DNA of 64,000 nucleotides. Origin: Alphaproteobacteria bacterium. GTDB lineage: Bacteria > Pseudomonadota > Alphaproteobacteria > JAREAF01. The position numbers were made by a program, and so were the translations under genes. Shown here in pieces: positions 3,986-20,364 of the stretch (its first letter is position 1; every line of letters starts with the position of its first letter). Location of the stretch: positions 509 to 64,508 of the forward strand of contig DASPGI010000126.1 of the NCBI GenBank assembly GCA_035620695.1, in the 5' to 3' direction. The notes beneath the pieces were generated by a model. That model had not been told where the DNA came from and made no database searches. It saw only the letters and a list, made by a program, of their open reading frames with translations.

Positions 3986-4061
3986 GCCCAGGTAGCTCAG
4001 TTGGTAGAGCACGTGACTGAAAATCACGGTGTCGGTGGTTCGATTCCGCCCCTGGGCACCA
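3986..4061 (+). tRNA. tRNA-Phe (anticodon GAA)
   Basis: 76 nt GCCCAGGTAGCTCAGTTGGTAGAGC...GGTTCGATTCCGCCCCTGGGCACCA; anticodon stem CGTGA/TCACG with loop CTGAAAA; encoded CCA end. Confidence 0.98.
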
Positions 4062-4106
4062 TTGGTGCACTGCATCCTAATGATTCCAATGGGTTACCAC
4101 CCCGAT

Positions 4107-4146
4107 TTGTCCCACCCGCCCGTTCGGAATCTCCAAGGTGGGACAA
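4107..4146. repeat. Inverted pair of putative integrase arm-type sites (left end of element 1)
   Basis: TTGTCCCAC (4107-4115) and GTGGGACAA (4138-4146) are exact reverse complements; the motif recurs at 6482 and 8098. Confidence 0.6.
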
Positions 4147-4240
4147 TCGGTTCGTAAAACGTACTCAGTTCTGCCGTCGGCCCCTGCTCGTTTTGCTGAT
4201 CGTCTAGCCCTGGCGACACATTCGAAAGTGGCGCACGCTG

Positions 4241-4783
4241 TTGCCCGCTAAGACTGTGGTCGGGCGTGTGATGCAAAACTTCCGGGAGGTGCGCCGCATC
4301 TCGAATGCCTATGCCAGCGGAATCGGGCGTGTCATTTCGCGATGGGCATATCTGGAGTGGCTGCTGACCGATATTACCCATCGGGTGCTTGGGATGGGTC
4401 CGAAGCAAGGGAGGTTGGTGGTCAGGGATGCTCGCGCCTATGAGCGCGTTGAGACGATCGACACGCTCATGCGATTGCGGCAGTTGAAAACGAGCGTCGA
4501 CCTGAAACAACTCGCCAGTGACCTGAAATCCGCAGAGAGCGATCGGAATTTGCTCGCTCATGGGATGTGGATCAAGCACCCACGCACGGGCAAGCTGCAC
4601 GTATGGTTCATCAGAGGAAACTGGCGCCCCGATCCGAAACAGCCCAAGGTCAGTAGGAAGATCAAACCTGAAGCGGTGCGGAAGGCGCCTGCGGATCTGA
4701 GGGCTTGCTATAAGGCGATCGATCGCCTGATTGGCGAGCTGAGGAATCTGCAGGCGGAAGTCGAGAAGGCTGTCACACCTTAA
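4241..4783 (+). CDS. Hypothetical protein with HEPN-like R-x4-H motif
   Basis: Predicted all-helical; IGRVISRWAYLE N-terminal helix and DRNLLAHGMW motif; start may be 4270. Confidence 0.6.
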   Translation: MPAKTVVGRVMQNFREVRRISNAYASGIGRVISRWAYLEWLLTDITHRVLGMGPKQGRLVVRDARAYERVETIDTLMRLRQLKTSVDLKQLASDLKSAESDRNLLAHGMWIKHPRTGKLHVWFIRGNWRPDPKQPKVSRKIKPEAVRKAPADLRACYKAIDRLIGELRNLQAEVEKAVTP

Positions 4784-4827
4784 AGGGGCGAGGGCGTGAT
4801 CGGCATCCAAGGGGAGGAGAAATCGCG

Positions 4828-5295
4828 ATGCTTCGACGCACGATGATAGGTGTTCTTGCACTTTGCGCCTTTGCAGCGTCTGCCGTTGTATATGCCCAAA
4901 CCGCCCAGTTCGGCACGCCTGAAGAAGCTCGGGCCCTGCTCGACAGGGCTGTCACAAGTATGAAGGCAGATCCGGCCAATACGATTGCTCAGATCAACAA
5001 AGGTGAAGGGGGGTTCAAAGATCGCGATCTCTATGTGTTCTGCTATGCCGATGGCAAGGTTGTCGCTCACGGAAATGACCCCACGCGGGTCGGCATGCTA
5101 ACAAAAGACCTGAAGGACACATCTGGAAAGCTGTATGGCGAGGAAATGCTCAGGGCTGCAGAAGAGGGCAAGATCGCGGAAGTCAGTTACATGTTTCCAC
5201 GGCCCGGATCTGATACGACGCCTGTGTCAAAAGTTGCGCTTGTGACCAAGGTGACTGATCACGTGTGTGCGGTAGGATACTACAAGCAGAACTAG
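4828..5295 (+). CDS. Secreted stand-alone single Cache-domain protein
   Basis: Signal peptide (MLRRTMIGVLALCAFAASAVVYA); TPEEARALL...FKDRDLYVFC...VVAHG...LKDTSGK...VSYMFPRPG...K...VCAVGYY Cache pattern; GGAGGAG RBS. Confidence 0.85.
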   Translation: MLRRTMIGVLALCAFAASAVVYAQTAQFGTPEEARALLDRAVTSMKADPANTIAQINKGEGGFKDRDLYVFCYADGKVVAHGNDPTRVGMLTKDLKDTSGKLYGEEMLRAAEEGKIAEVSYMFPRPGSDTTPVSKVALVTKVTDHVCAVGYYKQN

Positions 5296-5317
5296 AACCT
5301 TAGCCGGCATATCGCGG

Positions 5318-5803
5318 ATGACGGAGGGGTCTATATTGCCCAGCCAACCGGCAGTGTCGAAAAAGAGCACTCGACTTCTTCCGGTCACTACCCTGAGCGA
5401 GCCCGCATTGACGGCCATCGGCGATGTGGTCGCGGAATTTGGACGGATCGAATATGATACGAAGCTGGCGATAAAAAACATGGTGGGCGATTTCACCAAA
5501 GGCTTAATCGAAGCCGAGAAGCTGCACCGTTTCAGTGCAATCGCCGATCACGCTATTGCGAAGGCAGAAAAGCAATTTGGCGCTAAGAAGGCAAAGCGCC
5601 TAATTGGCCTAATCAAAGCCGCGAAAAAGCTGACGCCTTTCCGCAATGACGTAGTGCATGGCTGCTGGTTCGCGGATGATCGATTGGTGCGAATGGAATT
5701 CAAGAAACCCCATAGCCTAAAGCACCACAACTACATTGTTCGACTGGACGAATTGCAAGCTCTTGCTGACCGGCTTCGGGCGACCCGTCTGGAAATTCAC
5801 TGA
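5318..5803 (+). CDS. Hypothetical protein with HEPN-like R-x4-H motif (paralog-like to 4241-4783)
   Basis: AIGDVVAEFGRIE helix and FRNDVVHGCW motif at similar spacing to the first ORF. Confidence 0.6.
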   Translation: MTEGSILPSQPAVSKKSTRLLPVTTLSEPALTAIGDVVAEFGRIEYDTKLAIKNMVGDFTKGLIEAEKLHRFSAIADHAIAKAEKQFGAKKAKRLIGLIKAAKKLTPFRNDVVHGCWFADDRLVRMEFKKPHSLKHHNYIVRLDELQALADRLRATRLEIH

Positions 5804-5890: not shown

Positions 5891-6415
5891 TCATACGTAG
5901 ATGCCGAACTCCCAAGGCTGCTTGCCGGCTTCGCGAAGCCGGTCATTCGCATCTCGAAGCATACGCCTCAAGCGGTCTTGCTCCTTACGCACGAGATCGG
6001 CGTCTCGACGGATTTGGCCGCTGTTGCGCAGCATTGAAACGATCAACTCCCAGCTTGGCGCATCCTTATCACAAAAGGGGAGCGGGGACGACGGTTCGCC
6101 TGCCTCCCTCAGCGATTTCAATCAGTCCTGCCCAATCGGGGATCTCCTCTGTCTTGAGGAGGGCGGGCGGCGTCACATAGTAGAAGCGGTCACTGAACAG
6201 CGAGCTTCGCGCTGCTTGTTGTAGGTGTCCCGACGATAGTCCGCCCGCGATACTTTGATCTCGTAGGCTGTCGCCAGATAGCCCTTCGACTGCCACGGCG
6301 CGATTGTCCAGAAGTCGCATCGACGATCGCCGGTTGAAAGCGCGAGTTCGCTGGCCCAAATCATGCTGTCGTCACAGCTTGCGATAAGTGAATCGAGAAT
6401 GTCTTCTGCGGTCAT
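5891..6415 (-). pseudogene. MmcB-like PD-(D/E)xK nuclease pseudogene with two frameshifts
   Basis: Three frames join: MTAEDIL...RRCDFWTI...YEIKVSRADYRRD..KQREA / LFSDRFYYVTPP...EEIPDWAGLIE...VPAP / CDKDAPSWELIVSMLRN; shifts near 6200 and 6075. Confidence 0.7.
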
Positions 6416-6481
6416 GTCCTCGCATAACGCGATGTTACACGGTGCGCAACGAATAAGTGCAAAAGCCAAAGATCGCATGCG

Positions 6482-6591
6482 GTGGGACAAAACGGTTTGT
6501 AAGCCCTTGAAACACTATGGGACGAATCGCAGTCCCACCGGCCTGTATGTGATTGAAATACAAGACTTTATGCAGACCGCCCCTGGGCACC
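6482..6591 (+). repeat. att-like right end of element 1 (arm motifs plus tRNA-Phe 3' core)
   Basis: GTGGGACAA 6482-6490, TGGGACGAA 6518-6526, GTCCCAC 6532-6538, core CCGCCCCTGGGCACC 6577-6591. Confidence 0.75.
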
Positions 6592-6689
6592 GCTATAGGG
6601 CAGCGCGCCATACCGCGCAACAGTGCTGACGTCGTACAAAGTGATATCCAGGGACTTGTCCATCCCCTGCTAAGTCTCCGATTGTAAGA

Positions 6690-7110
6690 GGGGATATGCC
6701 CGTTCCAGAGCGCGCGTGCCGATAGTAGTCGGCAGATCGCGTGAAGATTTCAGCCAGGTTTAGGCTTTCCCATCCGAAAATCGCCATGAGCCGGTGCAAA
6801 TCCCGATTGGTGAGGGCGAGCTAAGCCACGTGGTCATAAGCCTCTGTGCCGCGCCGATTCCGGACGCGGTCTCGCTCAGACCATCAAGGATTTGGAGAAA
6901 GCTGCCGGTCTTGAAACGGCTGCGCCCGCAGGCGATGTGGCGAGCGTGTCCGGTGCGCCGTATTGGGATGGTTCCGTTCGTCATCGAAAAAACTTATGAA
7001 GCCAAAAGCTCATAGTGGCCACTCGGTCGAGCAAACTCGGCGAACACCCAAATTCCTCATGCCTCCGGCAATGTGGACATAGCGATTCTGACCCGAGGAC
7101 GTAACCGCAT
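6690..7110 (-). pseudogene. Decayed tyrosine recombinase (phage integrase) C-terminal remnant
   Basis: LHRLMAIFGWESLNLAEIFTRSAD resembles the integrase box II pattern (LMAIFGW...AExYTR); upstream DGLSE resembles an eroded HGLRK; several frameshifts, boundaries approximate. Confidence 0.65.
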
Positions 7111-7703
7111 CGGGAGCATATTATTACACGTTGCTGAACCTTCGGAGTTTGCTGCTCCATGTAAAGCGCTTTCCGCGCTACGGCGCCTGTGCTGTCGGGC
7201 CTTTAGTTCAACGATCCGATATGCCGGTTTCGCAACGTAACTCCCCTAATGACTGGATATGCGCACGTGCATCAAGAACGTCAACCAAGATTGGAAAAAT
7301 GCTGTCGAGGGGGCCACCGGCGGCAACGGGCCGCCGCTCGCCTTCAAGGCCCTGGAGCAGGCAAACACGGCGGGGCGCGGCTGGCGAGCATGCCGGGTGC
7401 GAGCCCAGAGCGGTGCCGTTGGACCGGGGGCCACCCTCGGTCACCTCTGCGAATCTCAATCCATCGGCGAGGATCGTCTATCGCTTCGGCTAGGCTGAAG
7501 ATTGTCCGACTGCGGGCGTATGGTTCCTGTCGCAACTTTGGCGCTACGGTGACTGATCCGGCGGTCAGAGTTGTGCTGGCCCCGTGCAGGGTCTGGCCGG
7601 GGATACATGGCCTCGCCCCGTGGGCGGCGGGCTTCCAATGGCGGCAGTAGCACGAGGTCTTGCCTGGCGCGAACATGAACCTGAGCCGCACTAGGGTGCA
7701 AGC

Positions 7704-8009
7704 ATGAGAGCATACGTCATAGTTCAAGAGACGATCAAAGACGAGGGTATGTTCGCTTTGTACCGGAACGGCGTGGTCGCCACCCTGCGGGAATATGGCG
7801 GCCGTTTCATTGTGCGCGGGGGCAGGCTGACTGTGATCGAGGGCGAGTGGCCGCATCCTCAACTGGTTGTGATTGAGTTCCCTTCGAGAGAAGCAGCTGA
7901 AGGATGGTATCAGTCCCCAGCCTACCAGAAGCTATTGCCATTACGGCTAAACAGTTCGGTCGGGAACTTCATCATTGTCGACGGAGCGATCGGAATTGAC
8001 TTCGTGTAA
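7704..8009 (+). CDS. DUF1330 domain protein
   Basis: AYVIV...YGGRFIVRGG...EGEW...VVIEFPSREAAEGWYQSPAYQ...LR. Confidence 0.9.
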   Translation: MRAYVIVQETIKDEGMFALYRNGVVATLREYGGRFIVRGGRLTVIEGEWPHPQLVVIEFPSREAAEGWYQSPAYQKLLPLRLNSSVGNFIIVDGAIGIDFV

Positions 8010-8097: not shown

Positions 8098-8214
8098 GTG
8101 GGACAATTTTGTAAGTGCTTGATCCAGGATCCAGGATGGGAGAAGTTCTGCCCCTCCACCACCCGCCGCTAAGTGCTCGGATTAGGCCGTTACCTAAACC
8201 GCCCCTGGACACCA
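8098..8214 (+). repeat. att-like right end of element 2
   Basis: GTGGGACAA 8098-8106 followed by GTAAGTGCTTGA, then core CCGCCCCTGGACACCA 8199-8214; spacing close to that at 6482-6591. Confidence 0.7.
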
Positions 8215-8508
8215 TCTCTCCAAGGTATGAAGGCAACGGCCCGTCCGAAGCCCAGCAAGGCGTTCCCAAGTCCTGCAGGCATCCGAAAAGGCATGGGGCG
8301 AAGGTCCGGGCTCCGGCCTGGAGCCCTCTACATAAGGTACCGATCCGGGCTGTCGCACTCGATGCTTCGGTGCCGCAGCGGTCCATCTAGACGAAATCTA
8401 CGGTGAATTTCCTGCAATAAAAAAAATTGCAACGCTAGAACCCTGTCGCCGTTTCGTCATTCGATTCGACCCTTTGTCGACTTATCTGTCAATGTGTGGA
8501 GCGTGACG

Positions 8509-8949
8509 ATGCTGTTGGACCACCTGCGTCGAGATCATAGAGAAGTGCTTGATCTTCTGAAGGTGATAGGCGAAAGCGATGATGCCAGGGAGTGCGGTGC
8601 GCTTTTCAATGAATTCCGCAACAAAATGCTGGCGCATGCTCATGCCGAGCAGAAAGTTTTATATGCGCCCATGAGGCGCGACGAAGAATTCGAGGATACC
8701 ATTCTCGAAGCAATCGTCGAGCATGAGGTAGCTGAGGATCTCATTGAGCAGTTGTCGCGTGCCCGGGGAAAGGCGTCGGCGGAATGGCACGCCAAATGCA
8801 CGGTACTGAAGGAGATGATCGAGCATCACGTCGAAGAAGAAGAGAGTGAAATCTTTCCTGCCGCGCAGAACATGTTCGATGCACGGGAGCTGGAGGAAAT
8901 GGCCGAGAAATTTCAGGGCATGAAGGAGAAGGAGCAGCGCGCGGCGTAA
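8509..8949 (+). CDS. Hemerythrin/HHE cation-binding domain protein
   Basis: DH...HAHAEQ...EH...HHVEEEE repeated HHE motifs. Confidence 0.85.
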   Translation: MLLDHLRRDHREVLDLLKVIGESDDARECGALFNEFRNKMLAHAHAEQKVLYAPMRRDEEFEDTILEAIVEHEVAEDLIEQLSRARGKASAEWHAKCTVLKEMIEHHVEEEESEIFPAAQNMFDARELEEMAEKFQGMKEKEQRAA

Positions 8950-10218: not shown

Positions 10219-11040
10219 TCAGCGAGCCGATCTATGTCCCTGGACAATTTCCCGTATGAGCGAATTTACGATGTCGGGGCGATGACCGAATGCCGAGCCG
10301 TGCCCGAGGCCTTCCAGGAGATGGAACTGGCCCTGCGGCGCGGCATCGGCGATGACTTTGCCGCGCGCCGGCGGCGTCTGCACGTCGTGTGAGAACGCCA
10401 CTACGTGCAACGGTACCTTGCAGGACGGCAGGCGCGGCAGCGAGTCATAGTCCACGCACGCCTGCCACTGTTCGGCGAGCGCCGCGCCGTCGCGGTTTCC
10501 GTAATCGCGGGCCACCACGGGGCGCACCTTCGACCACATCTCGTCGTCGCCCAGCACCTCGGCCGGATACATGAGAACAGCGTAGTGAGCGAGGGCGAAC
10601 TCGCGCGAAAGAGTTCCACCGGCGCGGCGGAACTCGATCTCCGCATCCTCCCATTCCTTGATGAAGCCCGTCTTGCGCGCGCAGGTGCCCATGATGATCG
10701 CGGCTCGAACCAGATCGGGACGGGTAAGCGATACCTCTTGCGCGATCAGCGATCCCATCGACAGACCGACCAGGAACACGGGCGGCTTGCAGCATCTCTC
10801 GATCAGCTGCGTGCAGTCGGCGGCATGGACCTCGATGGGCCATGGTGGCGGCATGTGGGAGATTGTGCGTCCCACGCCGCGCGCGTCCCAGGTCGTGTTC
10901 CTGAAATCCGCGAATGCGGGCAGCTGATACTCGTGCCAGCTCGCTCCCGGCATGTCGCCGGCGGCGAGCCATACGATGTCCACTCCAGCGCCTGTTTGAT
11001 CGTACCAAATTCTCGCCTGTGGAAGATCGAGGTAGGCCAT
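10219..11040 (-). CDS. Alpha/beta fold hydrolase
   Basis: WDARGVG, nucleophile elbow GLSMG, C-terminal Asp (HDVQ) and His (LGHG). Confidence 0.88.
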   Translation of the reverse strand: MAYLDLPQARIWYDQTGAGVDIVWLAAGDMPGASWHEYQLPAFADFRNTTWDARGVGRTISHMPPPWPIEVHAADCTQLIERCCKPPVFLVGLSMGSLIAQEVSLTRPDLVRAAIIMGTCARKTGFIKEWEDAEIEFRRAGGTLSREFALAHYAVLMYPAEVLGDDEMWSKVRPVVARDYGNRDGAALAEQWQACVDYDSLPRLPSCKVPLHVVAFSHDVQTPPARGKVIADAAPQGQFHLLEGLGHGSAFGHRPDIVNSLIREIVQGHRSAR

Positions 11041-11222
11041 GGCGCTCTTGCCCCGCCGAAACGTTGACTCTCATCACCGACTATAGTCTTATTGGAATAT
11101 TACTTCTTTTACTCGAAGCGGTAGGACAGAATCAAACCGAACAGCTTGCTTCGAGCGCCAGGCGTTTTCTCGTTCCGGTAACGCGATCAGCCCCAGGGAG
11201 TTCTGCTCGGCAGAATATCGGC

Positions 11223-12782
11223 ATGAGCGACAGAAACAGACAAGCCAGCATACGCGGTCCGAAGTTCACGAGGCGCCAGATGATGGGCGCCACGCTTGCC
11301 GGCACGGCGCTCTACACTGTCCCCGGTCTTTCCCCCGCGGCAGCGGCAAAGAAGGGTGGTGTGCTGAGTGTCGGAGCGACCGGTGGCGGAGCCAAGGATC
11401 ACCTCGACGCCCACAATCCCGTCGGATATCCGGATATCGCGCGCACCTACGCCCTTTACGAGCCGCTGCTGAATCGCAATCCCAACTACGAGTATGAGCT
11501 GTTGCTGGCGGAGGAGATCTCGGCCAATCCAAGCGCCGATGTGTGGACTATTCGCCTCAAGCAGGGCACCGAGTTCCACAACGGCAAGACTGTGACGGCG
11601 GATGATGCCATCTCGTCCATCCAGCGGATCATCAACCCGGAGAATCCGAAGGTTGGCGCCGCGGGCCTGACCGACATCGATCCGCAGGGTTTCAAGAAAC
11701 TCGACGAACGCACCTTTTCAATTCAGCTCAAGCAGCCATTTGCGGTATTCGACGAGCAACTGGGCCAGTACTTCAATGGCATCGTTCCGACAGACTATGA
11801 CCCGAACAATCCTGTCGGCACGGGCCCCTTCAAGTTTGGAAGCTTCACGCCCGGAGAGCAAAGCCGCTTTCCCGCCAATCCAAACTACTGGAGAGAAGGC
11901 GAGCCCCATGTTGACGAGCTCGTGATCATCGACTTTCCGGACGACACAGCGCGCGTGAATGCTCTACTCAGCGGCCAGGTGCAAGCCATCGACAATTTGC
12001 CGCTTGGGCAGCTTCGGGCGGTGGAGGCGACCCCGGAGCTGAAGGCGCTCGTCGCGAACACCGGCGCTTGGCTGCCGTTCACGATGCGCGTGGACCAGCC
12101 TCCGTTCGACGATGTGCGGGTGCGCCAGGCCTTCCGGCTTATCGTCGATCGCCAGCAGATGATCGACCAGGCGCTCGCCGGTCAGGGCTGGATCGGCAAC
12201 GATCTCTACTCGCCATTCGATCCGTGCTACGCCTCGCATCTGCCGCAGCGCCAACAGGACCTTGAGAAGGCGAAGGCTTTGCTGAAGGAAGCGGGCAAGG
12301 AAAATCTGGTGGTCGAGCTGGTGACGTCGCCGGTGGCGGCGGGAGTCGTGGAAGCGGCACAGGTGTTCGCCGAACAGGCCAAAGGTGCGGGCGTCACGGT
12401 CAACATCCGCAAGGTCGACAGCGGGGTGTTCTACGGCGACGACTATCTCAAATGGACCTTCGCGCAAGACTTCTGGTTTACGCGCGATTACATTCCGCAG
12501 GTCGCCCAGGGCAGCCTGCCGACGGCGCCATACAACGAGACGCACTGGGCCGACCCGACCTTCATCCAGCTCATCGATCAGGCCCGTGGCACGCTCGATG
12601 GGGCCAAGCGCTGCGAGCTGCTGCACCAAGCCCAGCAGATCGAATATGAGAGCGGCGGCTACATCATCTGGGGTTTCCGCAATCAAGTGGACGCCCATAG
12701 CGCGAAGATCGATGGATTCGTGCCGGCGAAGACGGGAACGCCCCTCGGTAACTACGCCTTTGGAAAGGTCTACTTCGTGTAG
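11223..12782 (+). CDS. ABC transporter substrate-binding protein, family 5 (peptide/nickel), Tat signal
   Basis: TRRQMMG twin-arginine leader; FHNGKTVTADD, PVGTGPF and DVRVRQA motifs. Confidence 0.92.
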   Translation: MSDRNRQASIRGPKFTRRQMMGATLAGTALYTVPGLSPAAAAKKGGVLSVGATGGGAKDHLDAHNPVGYPDIARTYALYEPLLNRNPNYEYELLLAEEISANPSADVWTIRLKQGTEFHNGKTVTADDAISSIQRIINPENPKVGAAGLTDIDPQGFKKLDERTFSIQLKQPFAVFDEQLGQYFNGIVPTDYDPNNPVGTGPFKFGSFTPGEQSRFPANPNYWREGEPHVDELVIIDFPDDTARVNALLSGQVQAIDNLPLGQLRAVEATPELKALVANTGAWLPFTMRVDQPPFDDVRVRQAFRLIVDRQQMIDQALAGQGWIGNDLYSPFDPCYASHLPQRQQDLEKAKALLKEAGKENLVVELVTSPVAAGVVEAAQVFAEQAKGAGVTVNIRKVDSGVFYGDDYLKWTFAQDFWFTRDYIPQVAQGSLPTAPYNETHWADPTFIQLIDQARGTLDGAKRCELLHQAQQIEYESGGYIIWGFRNQVDAHSAKIDGFVPAKTGTPLGNYAFGKVYFV

Positions 12783-12916
12783 CGCTCGGCAGCGGCGAGA
12801 GGGGTAGGGAACAGCCAGAGCGCTCCGGGCGGGGGCGCCTCAGGGTACGCGAGGACGGCGCGTCCGATCGCGCCGTATCGGCGTGTGATTACTCCACCAT
12901 ATGGGATCATAGCGGC

Positions 12917-13870
12917 ATGATCCGCCTGATCTTGCGTCGCTTGGGACTGGGCATTCTCACGCTCTGGTTCGTGTCTCTCGTGGTGTTCGCGGCGACGCAG
13001 GCCCTATCGGGGGACGCCGCCACGGCTCTGCTGGCCAGAACCGCTACGCCCGAGCGGCTTGCGGCGCTGCGTGCGCAACTGCATCTCGACGACCCGGTCT
13101 GGCTGCAATACGTCAAGTGGTTGGGCGGATTGGTCACCGGCGATCTAGGCCGGTCCATGGCAACGCAGAAGCCGGTGGCGGAGCTGATCGGTTTGCGGAT
13201 CGGCAACTCCGCGTTCCTTGTTCTTGTTGCGGCGTTGATCGCCATTCCCGCTTCGATGGTGATAGGGATTGCCAGTGCCGTGCGCCGCGACCGCGGCGTC
13301 GACCACGTGCTCACGATGCTGTCGCTAGTGCTGGCCGCGCTCCCTGAGTTCGTGATTGGCATAGCTCTTATCCTGATCTTTGCCACCGGCTTCTTTCATG
13401 TGCTGCCTGCCGTGGCCTTGCTCGATGACACCCGTCCAATCTGGCAGCAGTTCGATCAGATTCTCCTTCCCGCCCTTACCCTCGACCTCGCGGTGATTCC
13501 ATACATGGCCCGTATCATGCGTGCATCGATGGTTGAGGTGCTGGAAAGCGAGTATGTACAAATGGCGCGGCTCAAGGGCCTGCCGCAGCGGCTGGTGATC
13601 CTGCGCCACGCACTGCCCAATGCGATCGTTCCGGCCGTGCAGGTTACGGCCTTGCAGCTTGCATGGCTCGCCGGCGGCGTGGTCGTGATCGAGTATGTGT
13701 TCCGTTACCCCGGCATCGGCCAAAGCCTGATCGACGGCGTCGCCAATCGGGATCTCCCGGTTGTGCAGGCGTTGAGCCTGCTGGTCGGCGGACTTTACGT
13801 GGCGTTCAACTTATTGGCGGACGTGGTCACGATCCTCGTGACGCCGAAACTGCGGACGAGCCTGCAATGA
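12917..13870 (+). CDS. ABC transporter permease (DppB/OppB-like)
   Basis: GDLGRS and EAA loop (EVLESEYVQMARLKGL), multiple TM helices. Confidence 0.92.
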   Translation: MIRLILRRLGLGILTLWFVSLVVFAATQALSGDAATALLARTATPERLAALRAQLHLDDPVWLQYVKWLGGLVTGDLGRSMATQKPVAELIGLRIGNSAFLVLVAALIAIPASMVIGIASAVRRDRGVDHVLTMLSLVLAALPEFVIGIALILIFATGFFHVLPAVALLDDTRPIWQQFDQILLPALTLDLAVIPYMARIMRASMVEVLESEYVQMARLKGLPQRLVILRHALPNAIVPAVQVTALQLAWLAGGVVVIEYVFRYPGIGQSLIDGVANRDLPVVQALSLLVGGLYVAFNLLADVVTILVTPKLRTSLQ

Positions 13871-14769
13871 GCGGCATCCCAGGCGTGCAGGTGGCAGCTC
13901 CAACAGCAGGACCGAAAGCCCTCCGGGCTCCCTGGCTGCAAACCCTGCTCGCATCGTCGCGTTTCGCGCGCACATGGATCGGGTTGGGCATCACGGCGGC
14001 GGTCGTCGCGGTGGCGCTTCTGGGACCTGTGTTCGCTCCCTACTCTCCCACCGAGTTCGTGGCACCGCCCTATGAGCCGCCGTCGAGCGAGGCGTGGCTT
14101 GGCACCGACAATCTCGGCCGCGACGTGCTCAGCCGGTTCCTGTGGGGCGGGCGCTCGGTGCTAGGGCTTTCCATCCTCGCAACTGTGTTCGGGCTGGGTC
14201 TTGGCATTCTGGTTGGGTTGATATCGGCCTATACGCGCAATTGGATCGACGATGTCTTGATGCGCGCGATGGACGTTCTGCTCGCCTTTCCGCAGATCGT
14301 GTTCGTGCTGCTGTTGATCTCCAGCGTAGGGCCGCAGCTTTGGCTGATAGTGGTCACGGTGGGTCTGTCGCATGCGCCGCGCGTCGCTCGTGTCACCCGC
14401 GGTGCTGCGCTGGAGGTGGTCGAGCGAGATTTCGTCAGGTCCGCCGAGGCGTTGGGAGAAACGCGTTGGAGCATCCTGGTGGGTGAGCTTCTGCCGAACA
14501 TCTCTTCTCCGCTGCTTGTGGAGTTTGGGCTGCGCCTGACCTACTCCATCGGGCTGGTTGCCGCCGTCAGTTTCCTGGGATTTGGGCTGCAGCCGCCGGC
14601 AGCGGACTGGGGATTGATGATCAATGAGAATCGGATCGGCCTTACGATACAGCCCTGGCCGGTGGCGCTGCCCGTGATCGCCGTCGGCCTCCTGACTGTC
14701 GGGACCAATCTGATTACGGATGGGATTGCGCGCGCCGCTATCGGCATAGGTCGGAGCAGCGCCGCGTGA
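13867..14769 (+). CDS. ABC transporter permease (DppC/OppC-like)
   Basis: WLGTDNLGRDVLSR, DFVRSAEALG and LGFGLQPP.ADWG motifs; ATGA overlap with the upstream gene. Confidence 0.92.
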   Translation: MSGIPGVQVAAPTAGPKALRAPWLQTLLASSRFARTWIGLGITAAVVAVALLGPVFAPYSPTEFVAPPYEPPSSEAWLGTDNLGRDVLSRFLWGGRSVLGLSILATVFGLGLGILVGLISAYTRNWIDDVLMRAMDVLLAFPQIVFVLLLISSVGPQLWLIVVTVGLSHAPRVARVTRGAALEVVERDFVRSAEALGETRWSILVGELLPNISSPLLVEFGLRLTYSIGLVAAVSFLGFGLQPPAADWGLMINENRIGLTIQPWPVALPVIAVGLLTVGTNLITDGIARAAIGIGRSSAA

Positions 14770-16577
14770 ACATGCCCGTCGTGAAGATAGCCGGTTTGCG
14801 CATCGGCCTTGCCGGCTCGGCCTTCGATATCGTCGACGAAATCGATTTCCAGATCGGACAGGCCGAGATCGTGGGGCTCGTAGGCGAATCGGGCTCCGGC
14901 AAGACGACGGTCGGCCTCGCCCTGTTGGGATTTTGCCGACGCGGCGGAACGATCGAGGCCGGCCACATCACCATCGCCGGACGCAGCCTGCTCGAGCTGG
15001 GAACGGCTGCGCTGAATGCCGCACGCGGCCAAACCGTGGCCTACATCCCGCAGGATCCCTCGGCCGCACTTAATCCGGCTCTTCGGATCGGCCTGCAGCT
15101 CGAGGAGATGCTCGCGGTTCACCAGCCCGGTCTCGACGACGCCGAGCGCCGCAAGCGCGTGCTCGAGATGCTCGAGGAAGTCAAGCTGCCGACGCAAGAG
15201 CCCTTCCTGAAGCGCTACAAGCATCAGCTATCCGGCGGCCAGCAGCAACGGGTGGCGCTGGCCATGGCGTTTGCCTGTCGGCCGACGGTCATCGTGCTCG
15301 ACGAGCCGACAACCGGTCTTGACGTGACCACCCAGGCCCATGTGCTCGAAACCGTTCGAACCTTGTGCCGCCACTACGGCGTGGCTGCACTGTATGTAAG
15401 CCACGATCTCGCCGTCGTGGCGTCGCTGGCCGACCGGGTGCTGGTGATGTATGCGGGCCGCATCGTGGAGTCGGGCCCGGCCGCCGTGCTTTTTCGCAAT
15501 CCAGCCCACCCCTATACGCGAAGGCTGATCGCCGCGATTCCCGATCTGCACAGGAGACGCAATCTTGTCGGCATCCCGGGCCATGCGCCCTCGCCTGCGC
15601 AGCGCCCCTTGGGCTGCACTTTCGCGCCGCGCTGCGACTATGCGACCGGCGAGTGTCGCGCCCAATTTCCATCGGTTGAGATCATAGCGGCGCACCACTC
15701 CGTACGCTGCTGGCATCACGCGCGCGTTCAGGCCCGTGGCGATGCGCTTTCGGGGAGCGTGGGGGGCGCCGCAAGCCGGGCGTCGGCTGACCCAACCTCT
15801 CCGTTGCTTGCCGTCCGCGATCTTTCTGCCTGGTACGGTCGCCAGCCGGTACTTCACAAAGTGAGCCTGACGCTGGAAGCCGGTGAGTGCATGGCAGTGG
15901 CCGGTGAATCCGGAAGCGGCAAGACCACGTTGGCGCAATGCGTCGCCGGATTGCATCCGACTTTCTCGGGAGAGGTGATGCTCGCGGGCAAGGTGCTGGA
16001 GCCTCAGGCCCGGCGACGGCCGCGTTCGGTGCGCCGGGCGATTCAGTATGTGTTCCAAAGCCCTTATGCTTCGCTCAATCCGCGTCGCACCGTCGGCCAG
16101 ATCGTCGCGCGTCCTCTATACGTGTTCTTCGACGTCGGACACCGGCAAGCGCGGGAACGCGTGGCCGCCCATCTTGAGCGGGTGGCGTTGAGCCCGGCCT
16201 TGATCGACCGGTACCCGGATCAGTTGAGCGGTGGCGAGCGCCAGCGTGTCGCGCTTGCGCGCGCGCTCGCGGCCGACCCGCAGGTCCTTGTGTGCGATGA
16301 GGTGACATCGGCGCTGGACGTTTCTGTGCAGGCTGCCCTTGTCGAGTTGCTGGCGGAACTGCAGCGCAGCATGAATCTGGGCTTGTTGTTCATCACCCAC
16401 AATCTCGCATTGATCCGCACCATCGCCGACCGGGTTGCGGTCATGAGCGGTGGGCGCATCGTCGAAAGCGCTGAGGTTGAATCGGTTTTCGGCTCACCGA
16501 AGGCGGACTATACGCGAGAGCTTCTGGCCAACAGCCCCAGCCTGGATTCGCATGCCCCGATCAGCCAATCTGTATGA
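14766..16577 (+). CDS. Fused double-ATPase ABC subunit (DppD/F-like)
   Basis: Two Walker A motifs (GESGSGKT), two LSGG signatures, DEPT/DEVT Walker B. Confidence 0.93.
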   Translation: MNMPVVKIAGLRIGLAGSAFDIVDEIDFQIGQAEIVGLVGESGSGKTTVGLALLGFCRRGGTIEAGHITIAGRSLLELGTAALNAARGQTVAYIPQDPSAALNPALRIGLQLEEMLAVHQPGLDDAERRKRVLEMLEEVKLPTQEPFLKRYKHQLSGGQQQRVALAMAFACRPTVIVLDEPTTGLDVTTQAHVLETVRTLCRHYGVAALYVSHDLAVVASLADRVLVMYAGRIVESGPAAVLFRNPAHPYTRRLIAAIPDLHRRRNLVGIPGHAPSPAQRPLGCTFAPRCDYATGECRAQFPSVEIIAAHHSVRCWHHARVQARGDALSGSVGGAASRASADPTSPLLAVRDLSAWYGRQPVLHKVSLTLEAGECMAVAGESGSGKTTLAQCVAGLHPTFSGEVMLAGKVLEPQARRRPRSVRRAIQYVFQSPYASLNPRRTVGQIVARPLYVFFDVGHRQARERVAAHLERVALSPALIDRYPDQLSGGERQRVALARALAADPQVLVCDEVTSALDVSVQAALVELLAELQRSMNLGLLFITHNLALIRTIADRVAVMSGGRIVESAEVESVFGSPKADYTRELLANSPSLDSHAPISQSV

Positions 16578-16604
16578 CACCGACGGCACAGCGCTCTGCG
16601 GACA

Positions 16605-17591
16605 ATGACCATGGAACGATACAACATGCTCCAGGACGAAGGTATCCGCCGATTCGTGCTGGAGTCGGAATCATTGCGTCCCGCATACGCTGCCGGCGCC
16701 GCGATCGCCGAGCAGCGGATTTTCTACGACCGGCTATGCAGGCATTTTCGACGGCCGCGGCCGATTGGAATAGAGGTTCAAGACCTCTTCGTGAATGGTC
16801 CTGATGCAAGTGTATCGATTCGGCTCTACCGTCCAATGACCATAGGTTCGCTGCCCGCTCTGCTCTATTTGCATGGCGGCGGCTATATGCTGGGCGGTCT
16901 GGACAGCCATGACGATATTTGCGCCGAGATCGCCGACCGGGCCGGCGTTGCCGTCATCGCCATTGCCTACCGGCTTGCGCCGGAAGACCTGTTCCCGGCC
17001 GCCTTTGAAGACTGCCGGGCGGTACGCGATTGGGTCGCTTGCAGCGGTGCGGAACACGGCATCCGTTCCGACACCATCGCCATCGCAGGCGACAGCGCCG
17101 GAGGCGGTTTGGCGGCGGCTTTGGCGCTCGATGCCCGGGATAGAGGGGCGCCGCGGATCTCGGGGCAAATCTTGGTCTATCCCGACCTTGGCGGTGATAC
17201 GAGCAAGGGCTCTTATGTGGAACATGCCCAGGCGCCCGGCCTCACCACTGACGATGTCCGCTGTTATCGCTCAGCCTATCTCGGATCTTCCGTGGACCCC
17301 GCGCTGGGGAGCAAGTTCGCTCATCCCTTGAGGGAAAGCAGCTTTGACGGCGTTGCTCCGGCCTTTCTGGTCGCGGCCGAATGGGACCCCTTGCGCGACG
17401 ATTGCTTCGAATATGCCGGGCGTCTGCAAGCTTGCGGGGTTCCCGTCACCGTGCGACACGAGCCGCTGCTCGTGCATGCATTCTTGCGCGCGCGCCACAT
17501 GAGCAAACCCGCCGCCGAAAGCTTCACCGCCATTGCGGCAGCGGTTCGGTCTCTTGCCTACAAGAAGGAGCTGCCGTTGCAGGCCGCTTAG
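16605..17591 (+). CDS. Hormone-sensitive-lipase family esterase (alpha/beta hydrolase_3)
   Basis: HGGG oxyanion motif, GDSAGG nucleophile, DPLRDD, HAF. Confidence 0.9.
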   Translation: MTMERYNMLQDEGIRRFVLESESLRPAYAAGAAIAEQRIFYDRLCRHFRRPRPIGIEVQDLFVNGPDASVSIRLYRPMTIGSLPALLYLHGGGYMLGGLDSHDDICAEIADRAGVAVIAIAYRLAPEDLFPAAFEDCRAVRDWVACSGAEHGIRSDTIAIAGDSAGGGLAAALALDARDRGAPRISGQILVYPDLGGDTSKGSYVEHAQAPGLTTDDVRCYRSAYLGSSVDPALGSKFAHPLRESSFDGVAPAFLVAAEWDPLRDDCFEYAGRLQACGVPVTVRHEPLLVHAFLRARHMSKPAAESFTAIAAAVRSLAYKKELPLQAA

Positions 17592-18142
17592 GTCCGGATC
17601 GAGGCGAAGAGCGCTTCGACCGTGCCCTTGTGCTTGTCGAAATAGTGCAGGCGCGCCCCGGTATAGAGAATGAGATGGAGCCCGCCGTCTCGGCGCGCGC
17701 CTAGGACCGTGCCGAGCCCGTCCAATCCGCTTGGATACTGGAAGGAGAGATCGAACCGGAATCCGGGCCAGGCCCCAAACGGCGCGGGGCGCAAGTTGGC
17801 GGCGGTGACGGAATGCGCTCCGGTCGAGATCAGGCTGTCGACGACGAACTCCATGATCTCGCTTTCGCTCATCGTGGGGCGATAGGTGGGCGCATGCTTC
17901 TCGCCGAGGACACGGTAGAGGGTGTCGCCTTCCTCGAGCCCCGTTATGAATCCGAGTTGCTCCAATAGCGGCCCGTCAACGGTCCAGGTTTCGCGCTTGC
18001 CGTCTTGGGTTCGGCTCCAAGCTATCTGCGGATCGATGCTGTAGGCGTCTTTGATCGTGATCCGGGTCGGCGCGACCTCGGCATAGCTCGTGCAGCCGGC
18101 TAGGAGGAGGATCGCCATTACCAGGGACAGGCAGCGAAACAT
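17588..18142 (-). CDS. Hypothetical lipoprotein
   Basis: Lipobox LLLAGC; co-transcribed downstream of the M48 gene. Confidence 0.7.
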   Translation of the reverse strand: MFRCLSLVMAILLLAGCTSYAEVAPTRITIKDAYSIDPQIAWSRTQDGKRETWTVDGPLLEQLGFITGLEEGDTLYRVLGEKHAPTYRPTMSESEIMEFVVDSLISTGAHSVTAANLRPAPFGAWPGFRFDLSFQYPSGLDGLGTVLGARRDGGLHLILYTGARLHYFDKHKGTVEALFASIRT

Positions 18143-18153
18143 CGAGCGCTCCG

Positions 18154-19311
18154 TCAGGATGGGGAGGCAAGCCAGGCTTCGATCATCGCGCGGTCGGGTG
18201 CGTCGGGCGCCAGTCGGAGATACTCGGTGAAGGCCGCGCGCGCCTCCTCGGGCTTCCCCATCCGACGATAGACTTCGCCAAGACCGCGCCGCGCCTCGGC
18301 CGGCCCGTCCGGTTGGGCGAGCGCAGCCTGATATGCCTCGACGGCCTTGCGCTCATCGCCGTCCTCCCCGCGTAGCCGGTACAGTTCGCCCCGGTAGTAA
18401 GCGATCTCGCCACGATTGCGGCCGGCATGGTCCAGATGATCGAGCACGACTTCCGTTCGCCCGAAATTCCGCCGCCGCAGCTCGTCGCGCAACCACTTGC
18501 CTCTGAACGGCAAGGTCGCCGCCAGATACGCATCCTCGTTGGTCGCACCTTCCGTCGCGGCCGCGATTGCGGCAAGGGCGCCGAGGTTCTTCACGCGCTC
18601 TTGCATGCCCGGATGGGTGGCGAAGAAAAAGAACGGCTGATTCTCCTCGCCGGCCTCGCTCTCCTCGATCAGCGCTTGCCAAAGTGCCACTGCCTCGTCG
18701 GGATCGTACCCGGCCTGGACCATGCGCTCGAAGCCGATGGCGTCGGCCTCGCGCTCATGGTCCCTGCCATAGGCCATAAAACCGCCGACCGCGGCCAGAT
18801 CGACCGCATAGCCGGCAACGCCGACGCCCGCCCCTGCCAGGACGATGTTCGCGAACAGCATGAAGTTTGAGGTGTCCTTGGCCGCACGCCACTGCTTGAC
18901 CGTATGCCGGCGCTGATAGTGGCCGATCTCGTGCCCCAGGATATAGGCGAGCTGCGCCTCGTTCCGGCAGCGCAGCATCAGGCCAGTCCATACCGACATG
19001 AACCCGTTCGGGGCCATGCTCGCGTTGAATTCGGGAACTTCGACGAGATAGATGCGGATATCCGCACACAGCTCCGGTGCGACCTTGCAGGCGACGGAGC
19101 GCAGATAGGCGTTGAGGGCGGGGTCCTCAACCACGCGGCCGGAGCTGCGCAGATTGGCTTCCGCCCGCTCCATGACCAGCCAGAGCCCCGCTTCGTCGCT
19201 TTGTTCGGCGGGCCGGTCCCCCGGCGCGATGTCGGCGACCTTCGCGGCGCTGACGCATCCGGCAAGCAGCAGGCCAAGGATCGCGGCGCGGCCGACCCTT
19301 CCCCTCGTCAC
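18154..19311 (-). CDS. M48 family Zn metalloprotease lipoprotein with C-terminal TPR
   Basis: Lipobox LLAGC; NASMAPNG, HEIGH, E.EAD and THP motifs; TPR-like C-terminus. Confidence 0.9.
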   Translation of the reverse strand: MTRGRVGRAAILGLLLAGCVSAAKVADIAPGDRPAEQSDEAGLWLVMERAEANLRSSGRVVEDPALNAYLRSVACKVAPELCADIRIYLVEVPEFNASMAPNGFMSVWTGLMLRCRNEAQLAYILGHEIGHYQRRHTVKQWRAAKDTSNFMLFANIVLAGAGVGVAGYAVDLAAVGGFMAYGRDHEREADAIGFERMVQAGYDPDEAVALWQALIEESEAGEENQPFFFFATHPGMQERVKNLGALAAIAAATEGATNEDAYLAATLPFRGKWLRDELRRRNFGRTEVVLDHLDHAGRNRGEIAYYRGELYRLRGEDGDERKAVEAYQAALAQPDGPAEARRGLGEVYRRMGKPEEARAAFTEYLRLAPDAPDRAMIEAWLASPS

Positions 19312-20314: not shown

Positions 20315-20341
20315 GGTGTCGGTGGATCGATTCCGCCCCTG
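20315..20341 (+). repeat. Degenerate copy of tRNA-Phe 3' half (attR-like)
   Basis: 26/27 identity to 4028-4054. Confidence 0.8.
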
Positions 20342-20364
20342 TGTATCACAGCCATCTCCGCCAA

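What the first reader, a model, noticed from the sequence alone, without database searches (positions are those of the whole stretch)
4241..5803. HEPN-like / secreted Cache / HEPN-like cassette on a 2.5-kb tRNA-integrated mini-element
Seen: three co-oriented ORFs fill most of an element bounded by exact 15-bp tRNA-Phe repeats. The two outer ORFs are divergent but share an IG-x-V-x3-[WF]-x2-[LI]E helix and an RN-x2-[AV]-H-G-x-W motif at similar spacing (DRNLLAHGMW, FRNDVVHGCW). The middle ORF is a signal-peptide Cache domain with no transmembrane or output domain. Established: R-x4-6-H is the HEPN RNase active-site motif, HEPN domains work as dimers and are common in anti-phage and toxin systems, and Cache domains bind small extracellular ligands. 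Inference: this may be an undescribed defence or toxin module, possibly a heterodimeric HEPN RNase. The Cache gene could be part of it or a passenger.
Basis: partly seen in the sequence, partly recalled or inferred. Interest (0 to 1): 0.75.

Follow-up and report, generated by a model that had tools for sequence, protein, structure and literature searches.

The report
Stranded HEPN-like genes, not a cassette
The three genes are real, but they are a mosaic beside a tRNA gene and not one system: the two outer genes are distant members of a large unnamed protein family with an RNase-like (HEPN-type) signature that often travels as cargo of IS1595 jumping genes, and the Cache gene between them is an unrelated passenger.

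Summary
The three co-oriented ORFs, the tRNA-Phe gene and the exact 15-bp repeat are all present, and the two outer proteins are truly homologous (hhalign probability 98%, E 3e-13).

ORF1 belongs to a large family with no Pfam or NCBIfam model: 715 clusters at 50% identity, invariant R...R-x4-H. ORF3 belongs to a shorter, rare subfamily of it. HEPN is the best reading, but it rests on the motif and on many sub-threshold hits to HEPN models. The fold was not verified.

The triad is not a unit:
- The ORF1|Cache boundary (4807/4808) is a recombination joint.
- A related genome keeps ORF1 alone at the same tRNA, with core-like divergence (Ks 0.44, Ka/Ks 0.12).
- Another strain joins Cache-ORF3 to a different upstream sequence at 4808.
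- The only divergent ORF3 homologue has no Cache gene directly upstream.
- None of 31 family loci holds a Cache gene or a second full paralogue.

In 10 of 19 informative loci the family gene is instead right-end cargo of IS1595-family elements, with terminal inverted repeats and an 8-bp target duplication. The window copies have no transposase and no such repeats.

The "mini-element" is the first segment of a 16-kb composite tRNA-Phe island. Interest is modest.

The parts
3986..4061 (+). tRNA-Phe (GAA). Its last 15-16 nt (4046-4061) are the reference copy of the direct repeats.
   Evidence: ARAGORN; repeat family D2
4062..4807 (+). ORF1 module: a 180-bp leader plus ORF1 plus 24 bp. It is shared with relative L001 at the same tRNA (86.6% nt) and, from 4123, with metagenome contig L002 (75% nt). 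GC is 0.576 against 0.68 in the core.
   Evidence: blastn; junction sequences; GC; Ks 0.44 and Ka/Ks 0.12, the same as the flanking core genes
4271..4783 (+). ORF1, 170 aa from the conserved ATG (the TTG at 4241 gives 180 aa). It is a member of a large unannotated family with invariant R48, R92 and H97 (DRNLLAHGMW). HEPN-like.
4807..4808 (.). Recombination joint between the ORF1 module and the Cache-ORF3 module.
   Evidence: L001 diverges after 4807. L037 (98% nt) diverges before 4808. Run X3 has contigs of both forms.
4828..5295 (+). Secreted stand-alone sCache_2 protein, 155 aa, with a signal-peptide-like N-terminus. It is an unrelated passenger, linked to ORF3 only in close strain variants.
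   Evidence: Pfam PF17200 E 4.8e-11; contigs L035-L038; no Cache homologue in the other family loci
5318..5803 (+). ORF3, 161 aa. It belongs to a short, rare subfamily of the same superfamily (FRNDVVHGCW). It keeps G, E, R-x4-H and W, but lacks the family's invariant G-R (R48) and the roughly 20-residue hairpin insert.
   Evidence: Ka/Ks 0.115 against L003
6069..6490 (-). MmcB-like (PD-(D/E)xK-type) gene broken by a 1-nt frameshift near 6200. Soil contigs carry one extra C there and read through.
   Evidence: Pfam PF06319 E 1.7e-6 on the read-through product
6577..6591 (+). DR2: exact 15-nt copy of the tRNA-Phe 3' end.
8199..8214 (+). DR3: 15/16 copy of the tRNA-Phe 3' end.
20315..20341 (+). 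DR4: 26/27 copy of the tRNA-Phe T-arm region, marking the far end of the composite island. Synteny with L001 resumes at 20359 (Cation_efflux gene).

Best explanation
The region is a mosaic, not a system.

Shown:
- ORF1 and ORF3 are two distantly related members (about 20% identity) of one large unannotated family of 160-200-aa proteins.
- The family's only invariant residues are one Arg and an R-[ND]-x3-H-G-x-W motif.
- Elsewhere the family gene is solitary. In about half of the informative loci it is the right-end cargo gene of IS1595-family transporter insertion sequences. It lies downstream of, and co-oriented with, the transposase, inside the terminal inverted repeats, and the unit is flanked by an 8-bp target duplication.
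- The two window copies have no transposase and no such repeats. They sit in low-GC DNA at the tRNA-proximal end of a 16-kb composite tRNA-Phe island.
- ORF1 has been at this tRNA since before the split from a related species and is under purifying selection as strong as on its housekeeping neighbours.
- Cache plus ORF3 is a separate segment joined to it at 4807/4808.

Inferred: each protein acts on its own, probably as a homodimeric HEPN-type RNase. It would serve as a single-protein toxin or anti-phage effector that mobile elements carry and hosts sometimes keep. The secreted Cache protein is an unrelated passenger.
For: Family size and invariants: 715 cluster representatives at E<=1e-3. R48, R92 and H97 are invariant in 90 sequences.

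ORF1-ORF3 homology.

IS1595 link:
- Pfam DDE_Tnp_IS1595 (E 2e-36) and Zn_ribbon_IS1595.
- The transposase lies upstream and co-oriented in 10 of 19 loci with at least 800 bp of upstream sequence.
- Inverted repeats of 24-39 nt enclose the transposase and the family gene in L010, L014, L016 and L020.
- L020 has an exact 8-bp target duplication, TCCGTGCG, and L016 has 7/8.
- Neither the repeat consensus nor a transposase occurs in the window.

Mosaic structure: L001 holds ORF1 only, L037 joins Cache+ORF3 to another upstream sequence, and both joints occur in run X3. L003 shows no Cache upstream in the 98 bp held. No Cache homologue and no second full paralogue occur in the other loci.

Selection: Ka/Ks 0.12. 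ORF1's Ks of 0.44 matches RNase G, YacG and Maf at 0.37-0.46.

HEPN-like reading: weak hits fall on the R-x4-H stretch and go to Csm6, Csx1, CARF_HEPN, PD-T4-2_B, HEPN_RiboL-PSP and HEPN_Cthe2314, at E 0.002-0.06.

Cargo-type evolution: the family gene diverges faster than its transposase (39% against 75% identity between L016 and L020).
Against: - No HEPN model is matched at a significant level.
- No solved structure is hit by sequence.
- The AlphaFold models are unreliable (pLDDT 44 and 47). Foldseek on them gives only noise, with MarR-like and helical-bundle hits at E>0.6.
- The family has features not required of HEPN: an invariant G-R and a beta-hairpin insert.
- No regulator or antitoxin is evident for a supposedly toxic RNase.
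- Cache and ORF3 are only 22 bp apart and stay together in close strain variants, so a two-gene link cannot be fully excluded.
- RNase activity, toxicity and defence are all untested.
Confidence: 0.7

Rival explanations
1. ORF1, Cache and ORF3 form one dedicated defence or toxin module. The two HEPN-like proteins form a heterodimeric RNase, possibly controlled through the Cache protein.
For: The genes are co-oriented and tightly spaced. Both proteins keep R-x4-H. HEPN RNases act as dimers (established knowledge).
Against: The joint at 4807/4808 separates ORF1 from the rest in L001 and L037. ORF1 is ancestral at the locus while the rest is variable. The L003 homologue of ORF3 shows no Cache in the 98 bp held upstream. 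None of 31 family loci has a Cache gene or a second full paralogue. Cache is predicted to be periplasmic, whereas the HEPN-like proteins have no signal peptide.
Confidence: 0.05
2. Cache and ORF3 form a two-gene unit, co-transcribed across a 22-bp gap, that moves together. ORF1 is unrelated to it.
For: The 22-bp spacing. The pair is kept together, joined to a different upstream sequence, in L037 and in run X3.
Against: All such contigs are 98-100% identical strain variants, so this is not independent evidence. The only divergent ORF3 homologue (61% identity, L003) shows no Cache coding sequence in the 98 bp upstream of it. The nearest subfamily members (L029, L030, L033) have other neighbours.
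Confidence: 0.12
3. The family is not an RNase. It is a nucleic-acid-binding regulator, for example winged-helix-like, that serves the IS1595 element by controlling transposition or copy number. The window copies would then be relics.
For: The persistent association with one IS1595 lineage across the family's whole diversity. A helix-helix-hairpin arrangement around the motif in the low-confidence model, and MarR-like top Foldseek hits.
Against: The Foldseek hits are noise (E>0.6, TM about 0.2). An invariant R-[ND]-x3-H across relatives of 20-30% identity fits a catalytic site better than a DNA-reading helix. About half of the informative loci, and both window copies, lack any IS, yet the window genes are under strong purifying selection. 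The weak profile hits go to HEPN models.
Confidence: 0.15

Closest known systems
HEPN superfamily RNases (Anantharaman et al. 2013, from memory), especially minimal single-domain members; the nearest weak model hits are Csm6/Csx1 HEPN domains, PD-T4-2_B, HEPN_RiboL-PSP (PF18735) and HEPN_Cthe2314 (PF18730)
   Same: An invariant R-x4-H with N or D after the Arg, following a run of helices. Small, mostly helical proteins. Carried on mobile elements. The weak profile hits fall on the motif region.
   Different: No significant match to any HEPN model or solved structure. The fold is unverified. There is an extra invariant G-R, a predicted beta-hairpin after the motif and a long C-terminal helix. 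No CARF, MNT or other partner domain is present.
Transporter insertion sequences (tIS) of the IS1595 family, such as tISCpe8 and MTnSag1 (PMC5704250; Siguier, Gagnevin and Chandler 2009, as cited there)
   Same: Relatives of ORF1 lie inside units bounded by terminal inverted repeats, together with a DDE_Tnp_IS1595 transposase and flanked by an 8-bp target duplication.
   Different: The known tIS carry lincosamide-resistance cargo. Here the cargo is a HEPN-like gene. The two window copies have no transposase, no terminal repeats and no target duplication.
tRNA-linked genomic islands built by tandem accretion, and integrase-less att-bounded remnants (CIME-like)
   Same: Four copies of the tRNA-Phe 3' end, low GC (0.54-0.58 against 0.68), and content that differs from the relative at the same tRNA.
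   Different: No integrase could be confirmed. The first 746 bp after the tRNA are ancestral rather than newly integrated.
HEPN-MNT (HepT/MntA) toxin-antitoxin pairs
   Same: A small HEPN-type protein with R-N-x3-H.
   Different: No nucleotidyltransferase neighbour in the window or in the related loci where neighbours were scanned.
Stand-alone periplasmic sCache_2 proteins
   Same: A signal-peptide-like leader plus a single Cache domain.
   Different: Nothing unusual. No link to the HEPN-like family beyond this strain cluster.

Membership tests
HEPN superfamily | R-x4-6-H motif with a polar residue (N/D/H) after the Arg, conserved across the family | tested here: met
   R92 and H97 are invariant in 90 sequences, consensus RDxLAHGxW. 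ORF1 has DRNLLAHGMW and ORF3 has FRNDVVHGCW.
HEPN superfamily | All-alpha up-down helical bundle, with the motif at the start of the last core helix and at a dimer interface | tested here: inconclusive
   The AlphaFold2 models were built on 2-3-sequence alignments and gave pLDDT 44 and 47. Helices precede the motif, but the models are unreliable. Foldseek gives only noise.
HEPN superfamily | Significant profile match to a curated HEPN family | tested here: not met
   Only sub-threshold hits, E 0.002-0.06, though they are enriched for HEPN-bearing models. No hit in the PDB.
HEPN superfamily | Metal-independent RNase activity that depends on the R and H | not testable with these tools
   Needs biochemistry.
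IS1595-family transporter IS (for the window copies) | Adjacent DDE_Tnp_IS1595 transposase | tested here: not met
   tblastn with two transposases finds none in the 64-kb window. It finds one in 10 related loci.
IS1595-family transporter IS (for the window copies) | Terminal inverted repeats and an 8-bp target duplication around the gene | tested here: not met
   The repeat consensus GGGRATTATAWMYTTGACAAAG is absent from the window at up to 3 mismatches. It is present in L010, L014, L016, L018, L020 and L024.
tRNA-integrated genomic island | Direct repeats of the tRNA 3' end that bound foreign-composition DNA | tested here: met
   DR at 4046-4060, 6577-6591, 8199-8214 and 20315-20341. GC is 0.54-0.58 against 0.68.
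tRNA-integrated genomic island | Tyrosine or serine integrase next to an att site | tested here: not met
   No Pfam hit for the ORFs at 6593-7160(-), even at E<=10. tblastn of the integrase-looking fragment against plasmids finds nothing.
   L001 has ORF1 alone. L037 joins Cache+ORF3 to another upstream sequence. L003 shows no Cache in the 98 bp upstream of its ORF3 homologue. The 31 family loci hold no Cache gene and no second full paralogue.
HEPN-MNT toxin-antitoxin | Adjacent minimal nucleotidyltransferase gene | tested here: not met
   The window neighbours are Cache and an MmcB-like pseudogene. The neighbours scanned in related loci are a transposase, a GNAT protein and unknowns.
sCache_2 (PF17200), for the middle ORF | Pfam match above the gathering score | tested here: met
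   43.3 bits against a cut-off of 25, E 4.8e-11.

The most novel reading that the evidence does not exclude
The ORF1/ORF3 family is a previously undescribed single-protein HEPN-type RNase defence or toxin family. Its main vehicle would be one lineage of IS1595 transporter insertion sequences. The tRNA-Phe copy would be a domesticated descendant, which the host has kept for its own benefit since before two species split (Ka/Ks 0.12, core-like Ks).
Probability: 0.3. Interest if true: 0.6.

Novelty: new member of a known kind. Interest (0 to 1): 0.3.

Why it matters
The proposed HEPN-Cache-HEPN system would have been a new defence architecture. The evidence says it is a chance juxtaposition, so that lead can be dropped.

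What remains of value is the protein family. It is large (at least 715 clusters at 50% identity), it comes mostly from metagenome contigs (the window's own stretch is in soil runs), and it has no Pfam or NCBIfam model and no PDB sequence match. It carries an invariant HEPN-type signature and is a habitual passenger of IS1595-family elements. I found no paper linking IS1595 elements with HEPN cargo.

The window adds two points to that picture. Such genes can outlive their transposon and be kept under strong purifying selection in a host chromosome. Two very divergent subfamilies can also end up side by side through island mosaicism.

If the RNase or defence role were shown, it would document insertion sequences as shuttles for minimal immune or toxin genes.

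Tried and rejected
Structure and sequence searches that gave nothing usable:
- AlphaFold2 on the only alignments available early (3 and 2 sequences) gave pLDDT 44 and 47. Foldseek on both models returned noise.
- PDB sequence and profile searches with ORF1, ORF3, A3 and A6 gave nothing meaningful.
- Pfam, NCBIfam and PADLOC on the single proteins gave no significant family for ORF1 or ORF3.
- Direct BLASTP of ORF1 against ORF3 was not significant. Homology showed only with profiles.
- tblastn of ORF1 and ORF3 against 72,556 plasmids found no match. The viral contig scan found no relative. The genome-contig scan found a single MAG locus.

Ideas I dropped:
- An integrase remnant at 6593-7000(-). 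My impression rested on an HxLR-like and a GW.S....E.FTR.AD-like stretch, and neither Pfam nor tblastn confirmed it. It stays unverified.
- A leftover IS terminal repeat downstream of ORF1. None was found.
- A small basic RRML.TPPKPH protein upstream of ORF1, of the kind seen in L005 and L012. It is absent from the window, L001 and L002.

Literature: no paper links IS1595 with HEPN cargo.
Full report
**1. What is there**

The window holds tRNA-Phe(GAA) at 3986-4061. Three co-oriented ORFs follow: 4241-4783, 4828-5295 and 5318-5803. The last 15 nt of the tRNA, CCGCCCCTGGGCACC, recur exactly at 6577-6591 and with one mismatch at 8199-8213. Dinucleotide shuffles expect 0.04 such matches, and none of 100 reached three. 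A longer fragment of the same tRNA (26/27 nt, covering the T-arm) lies at 20315-20341.

GC falls from about 0.68 in the flanking core to 0.54-0.58 between 4062 and about 10200. Synteny with a related genome (L001, 86.6% nt identity over 4.8 kb of core) stops at 4807. It resumes at 20359, just after the fourth repeat.

This agrees with the sibling note e1-5216863, and I re-derived it independently.

**2. The three genes**

The middle ORF is a secreted single-Cache protein: sCache_2, E 4.8e-11, above Pfam's cut-off, with a hydrophobic leader and no other domain.

ORF1 and ORF3 have no significant hit in Pfam, NCBIfam, PADLOC or the PDB. Word-based searches found only two close clusters for each.

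A full HMMER scan with the ORF1 alignment found 715 cluster representatives at E<=1e-3 and 380 at E<=1e-10. They are proteins of about 170-200 aa. Those looked up come mostly from metagenomes and are unnamed or "hypothetical".

In a 90-sequence alignment the only invariant residues are R48, R92 and H97, numbered from the conserved start at 4271. G19, E29, G47, L66, W100, G116 and P133 are nearly invariant. The consensus is IGRxIxRWAxLE ... PKxGRxAVR ... RDxLAHGxW.

**3. ORF1 and ORF3 are homologous**

- Direct BLASTP is not significant.
- hhalign of the family against ORF3 plus its one homologue gives probability 88%, E 3e-6.
- The family HMM hits ORF3 (E 4e-4) and its homologue in L003 (E 2e-4) among 3061 six-frame segments, with no unrelated hit.
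- ORF3 itself hits the divergent members L029, L030 and L033.
- hhalign of the family against a five-sequence ORF3 subfamily alignment gives probability 98%, E 2.9e-13 over 158 columns.

ORF3's subfamily keeps G19, E29, R-N-x3-H-G-x-W and the C-terminal helix. It lacks the invariant G-R and about 20 residues after the motif.

Both genes are under purifying selection. Ka/Ks is 0.12 for ORF1 against L001 and L002, and 0.115 for ORF3 against L003.

**4. Is it HEPN?**

The motif is the classical form: R-x4-H with N or D after the Arg. It follows a run of predicted helices.

No HEPN model is matched significantly. The weak hits, however, are not random. Among 90 members scanned against PADLOC, 11 of the 16 hits with E<=0.1 are to CARF_HEPN, Csx1/Csm6 or PD-T4-2_B models. 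The family consensus, L029, L030, L033 and ORF3 hit Csm6, Csx1 and CARF_HEPN models at E 0.002-0.06. In each case the hit places the family's R-x4-H stretch on the C-terminal HEPN part of the model. L030 also touches Pfam HEPN_RiboL-PSP and HEPN_Cthe2314, at E about 0.05.

I read this as good support at the level of the motif, not as proof of the fold. Both structure predictions were made before the deep alignment existed and are unreliable (pLDDT 44 and 47). Foldseek on them returns noise. I put HEPN-type RNase at roughly 55-60%.

**5. Where the family normally lives**

I fetched 31 further loci: one MAG and 30 metagenome contigs. None came from viral contigs.

An all-against-all comparison of the neighbours showed one recurrent partner, a protein of about 317 aa. 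Pfam identifies it as an IS1595-family transposase (DDE_Tnp_IS1595, E 2e-36, plus Zn_ribbon_IS1595). It lies upstream of the family gene and co-oriented with it in 10 of the 19 independent loci that have at least 800 bp of upstream sequence.

Terminal inverted repeats of 24-39 nt enclose the transposase together with the family gene in L010, L014, L016/L018 and L020. Their consensus is GGGRATTATAWMYTTGACAAAG. L024 has the right-end repeat. L020 is flanked by an exact 8-bp duplication, TCCGTGCG, and L016 by a 7/8 duplication.

These are therefore transporter ISs of the IS1595 family, a kind known from tISCpe8 and MTnSag1 (PMC5704250). The HEPN-like gene is their right-end cargo. What lies between the transposase and the cargo varies: a GNAT gene in L014, unrelated small ORFs elsewhere.

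The cargo diverges much faster than the transposase. Between L016 and L020 the figures are 39% against 75% identity. IS-borne members span the family's whole diversity.

I reached this reading. A later look at the scan's notes showed many earlier reports of HEPN-like cargo in IS1595 elements in other genomes. These are AI notes, not independent proof, but they are consistent. I found no paper linking IS1595 with HEPN cargo.

**6. The window copies are stranded, and the triad is a mosaic**

The window has no IS1595 transposase and no terminal-repeat consensus at up to 3 mismatches.

The boundary between ORF1 and Cache is a recombination joint at 4807/4808:
- L001 is collinear up to 4807, which is 24 nt past ORF1's stop. 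It then continues with an unrelated SBP_bac_5 gene.
- Contig L037 is 98% identical from 4808 onwards (Cache, ORF3) but has a different sequence before it.
- Soil run X3 contains contigs of both forms.

ORF1's synonymous divergence from L001 (Ks 0.44) equals that of the adjacent core genes RNase G, YacG and Maf (0.37-0.46). Its Ka/Ks of 0.12 is as low as theirs. ORF1 was therefore already next to tRNA-Phe in the common ancestor and has been kept by selection. The DNA beyond 4807 has been exchanged.

The only divergent homologue of ORF3 (61% identity, L003) shows no Cache-like coding sequence in the 98 bp held upstream of it. No family locus contains a Cache homologue. None contains a second full-length paralogue either. 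L027 has only a short inverted partial duplicate. Contigs that keep Cache and ORF3 together are 98-100% identical strain variants.

The segment also holds an MmcB-like gene on the minus strand (6069-6490). It is broken by a 1-nt frameshift here and read through in other soil strains. No integrase was confirmed.

**7. Mechanism**

Shown:
- homology of the two proteins and the invariant R...R-x4-H;
- cargo status inside IS1595 elements in relatives;
- mosaic structure of the region;
- purifying selection on both genes.

Inferred:
- Each protein acts alone, probably as a homodimer that forms a composite R/H RNase site as in other HEPN enzymes.
- It acts as a toxin or an abortive-infection-type effector that benefits the element through retention, or the host through defence.

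The main rival is a DNA- or RNA-binding accessory factor of the IS (about 15%). A dedicated Cache-ORF3 pair stands at about 12%. The full triad or heterodimer model stands at about 5%.

**8. Verdict**

The proposed three-gene system is not real as a system.

What is there is a pair of stranded members of an unannotated HEPN-like family that is typical IS1595 cargo, lying in a decaying composite tRNA-Phe island. I class it as a new member of a known kind, with modest interest (0.3). The family itself merits one decisive test: a deep-alignment structure prediction together with an RNase and toxicity assay.

Noticed in passing
window 6600-6698: A 99-bp segment directly after DR2 is found in the opposite orientation in soil-metagenome contigs of three runs (X2, X3, X6), with both joints seen and only 2 nt shared at the joints. 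Run X1 has a contig in the window's orientation. No convincing flanking inverted repeat was found. It may be an invertible segment, a strain difference or an assembly fold-back.
   Followed up: partly
window 6069-6490 (-): An MmcB-like (PF06319) gene is broken by a 1-nt frameshift near 6200. Contigs of runs X2 and X3 carry one extra C behind 6200 and give an uninterrupted ORF of about 136 aa.
   Followed up: yes
L005 1059-1247 (-) and L012 653-832 (-): A small basic ORF with the motif RRML.TPPKPH lies head-to-head with the family gene inside IS1595 elements. Earlier scan notes report the same motif. It is absent upstream of ORF1 in the window, L001 and L002.
   Followed up: partly
L016 vs L020 (and other pairs): The HEPN-like cargo gene evolves much faster than the transposase of the same element: 39% against 75% identity between L016 and L020, and 23-38% against 50-60% in other pairs.
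   Followed up: partly
L027 1840-2010 (-): An inverted partial duplicate of the family gene's N-terminal part lies directly upstream of the full gene (2212-2826).
   Followed up: no
L010 4-117 and 4903-5021: The 5-kb contig has long inverted repeats at both ends (two blocks of 57 nt, 95-98% complementary) enclosing the whole IS1595 element and its neighbours. This may be a larger composite element or an assembly artefact.
   Followed up: no
window 6593-7000 (-): Broken reading frames contain stretches that look to me like the C-terminus of a tyrosine integrase (SPHRLR..., LMAIFGWESLNLAEIFTRSAD), next to DR2. Pfam and tblastn against plasmids did not confirm it.
   Followed up: partly
window 7704-8009, 8494-8949 and 10219-19311: The rest of the island holds a DUF1330 gene, a hemerythrin-domain gene, two alpha/beta hydrolases, a complete peptide-type ABC transporter (SBP_bac_5, two permeases, a double ATPase) and an M48-TPR peptidase. 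GC rises to 0.63-0.64 from about 10200, so the outer part may be older or of different origin.
   Followed up: partly
L030 736-1890: The ORF3-like subfamily member in L030 is followed, 15 bp downstream, by a 384-aa ORF with a weak GIY-YIG hit (E 0.003).
   Followed up: no
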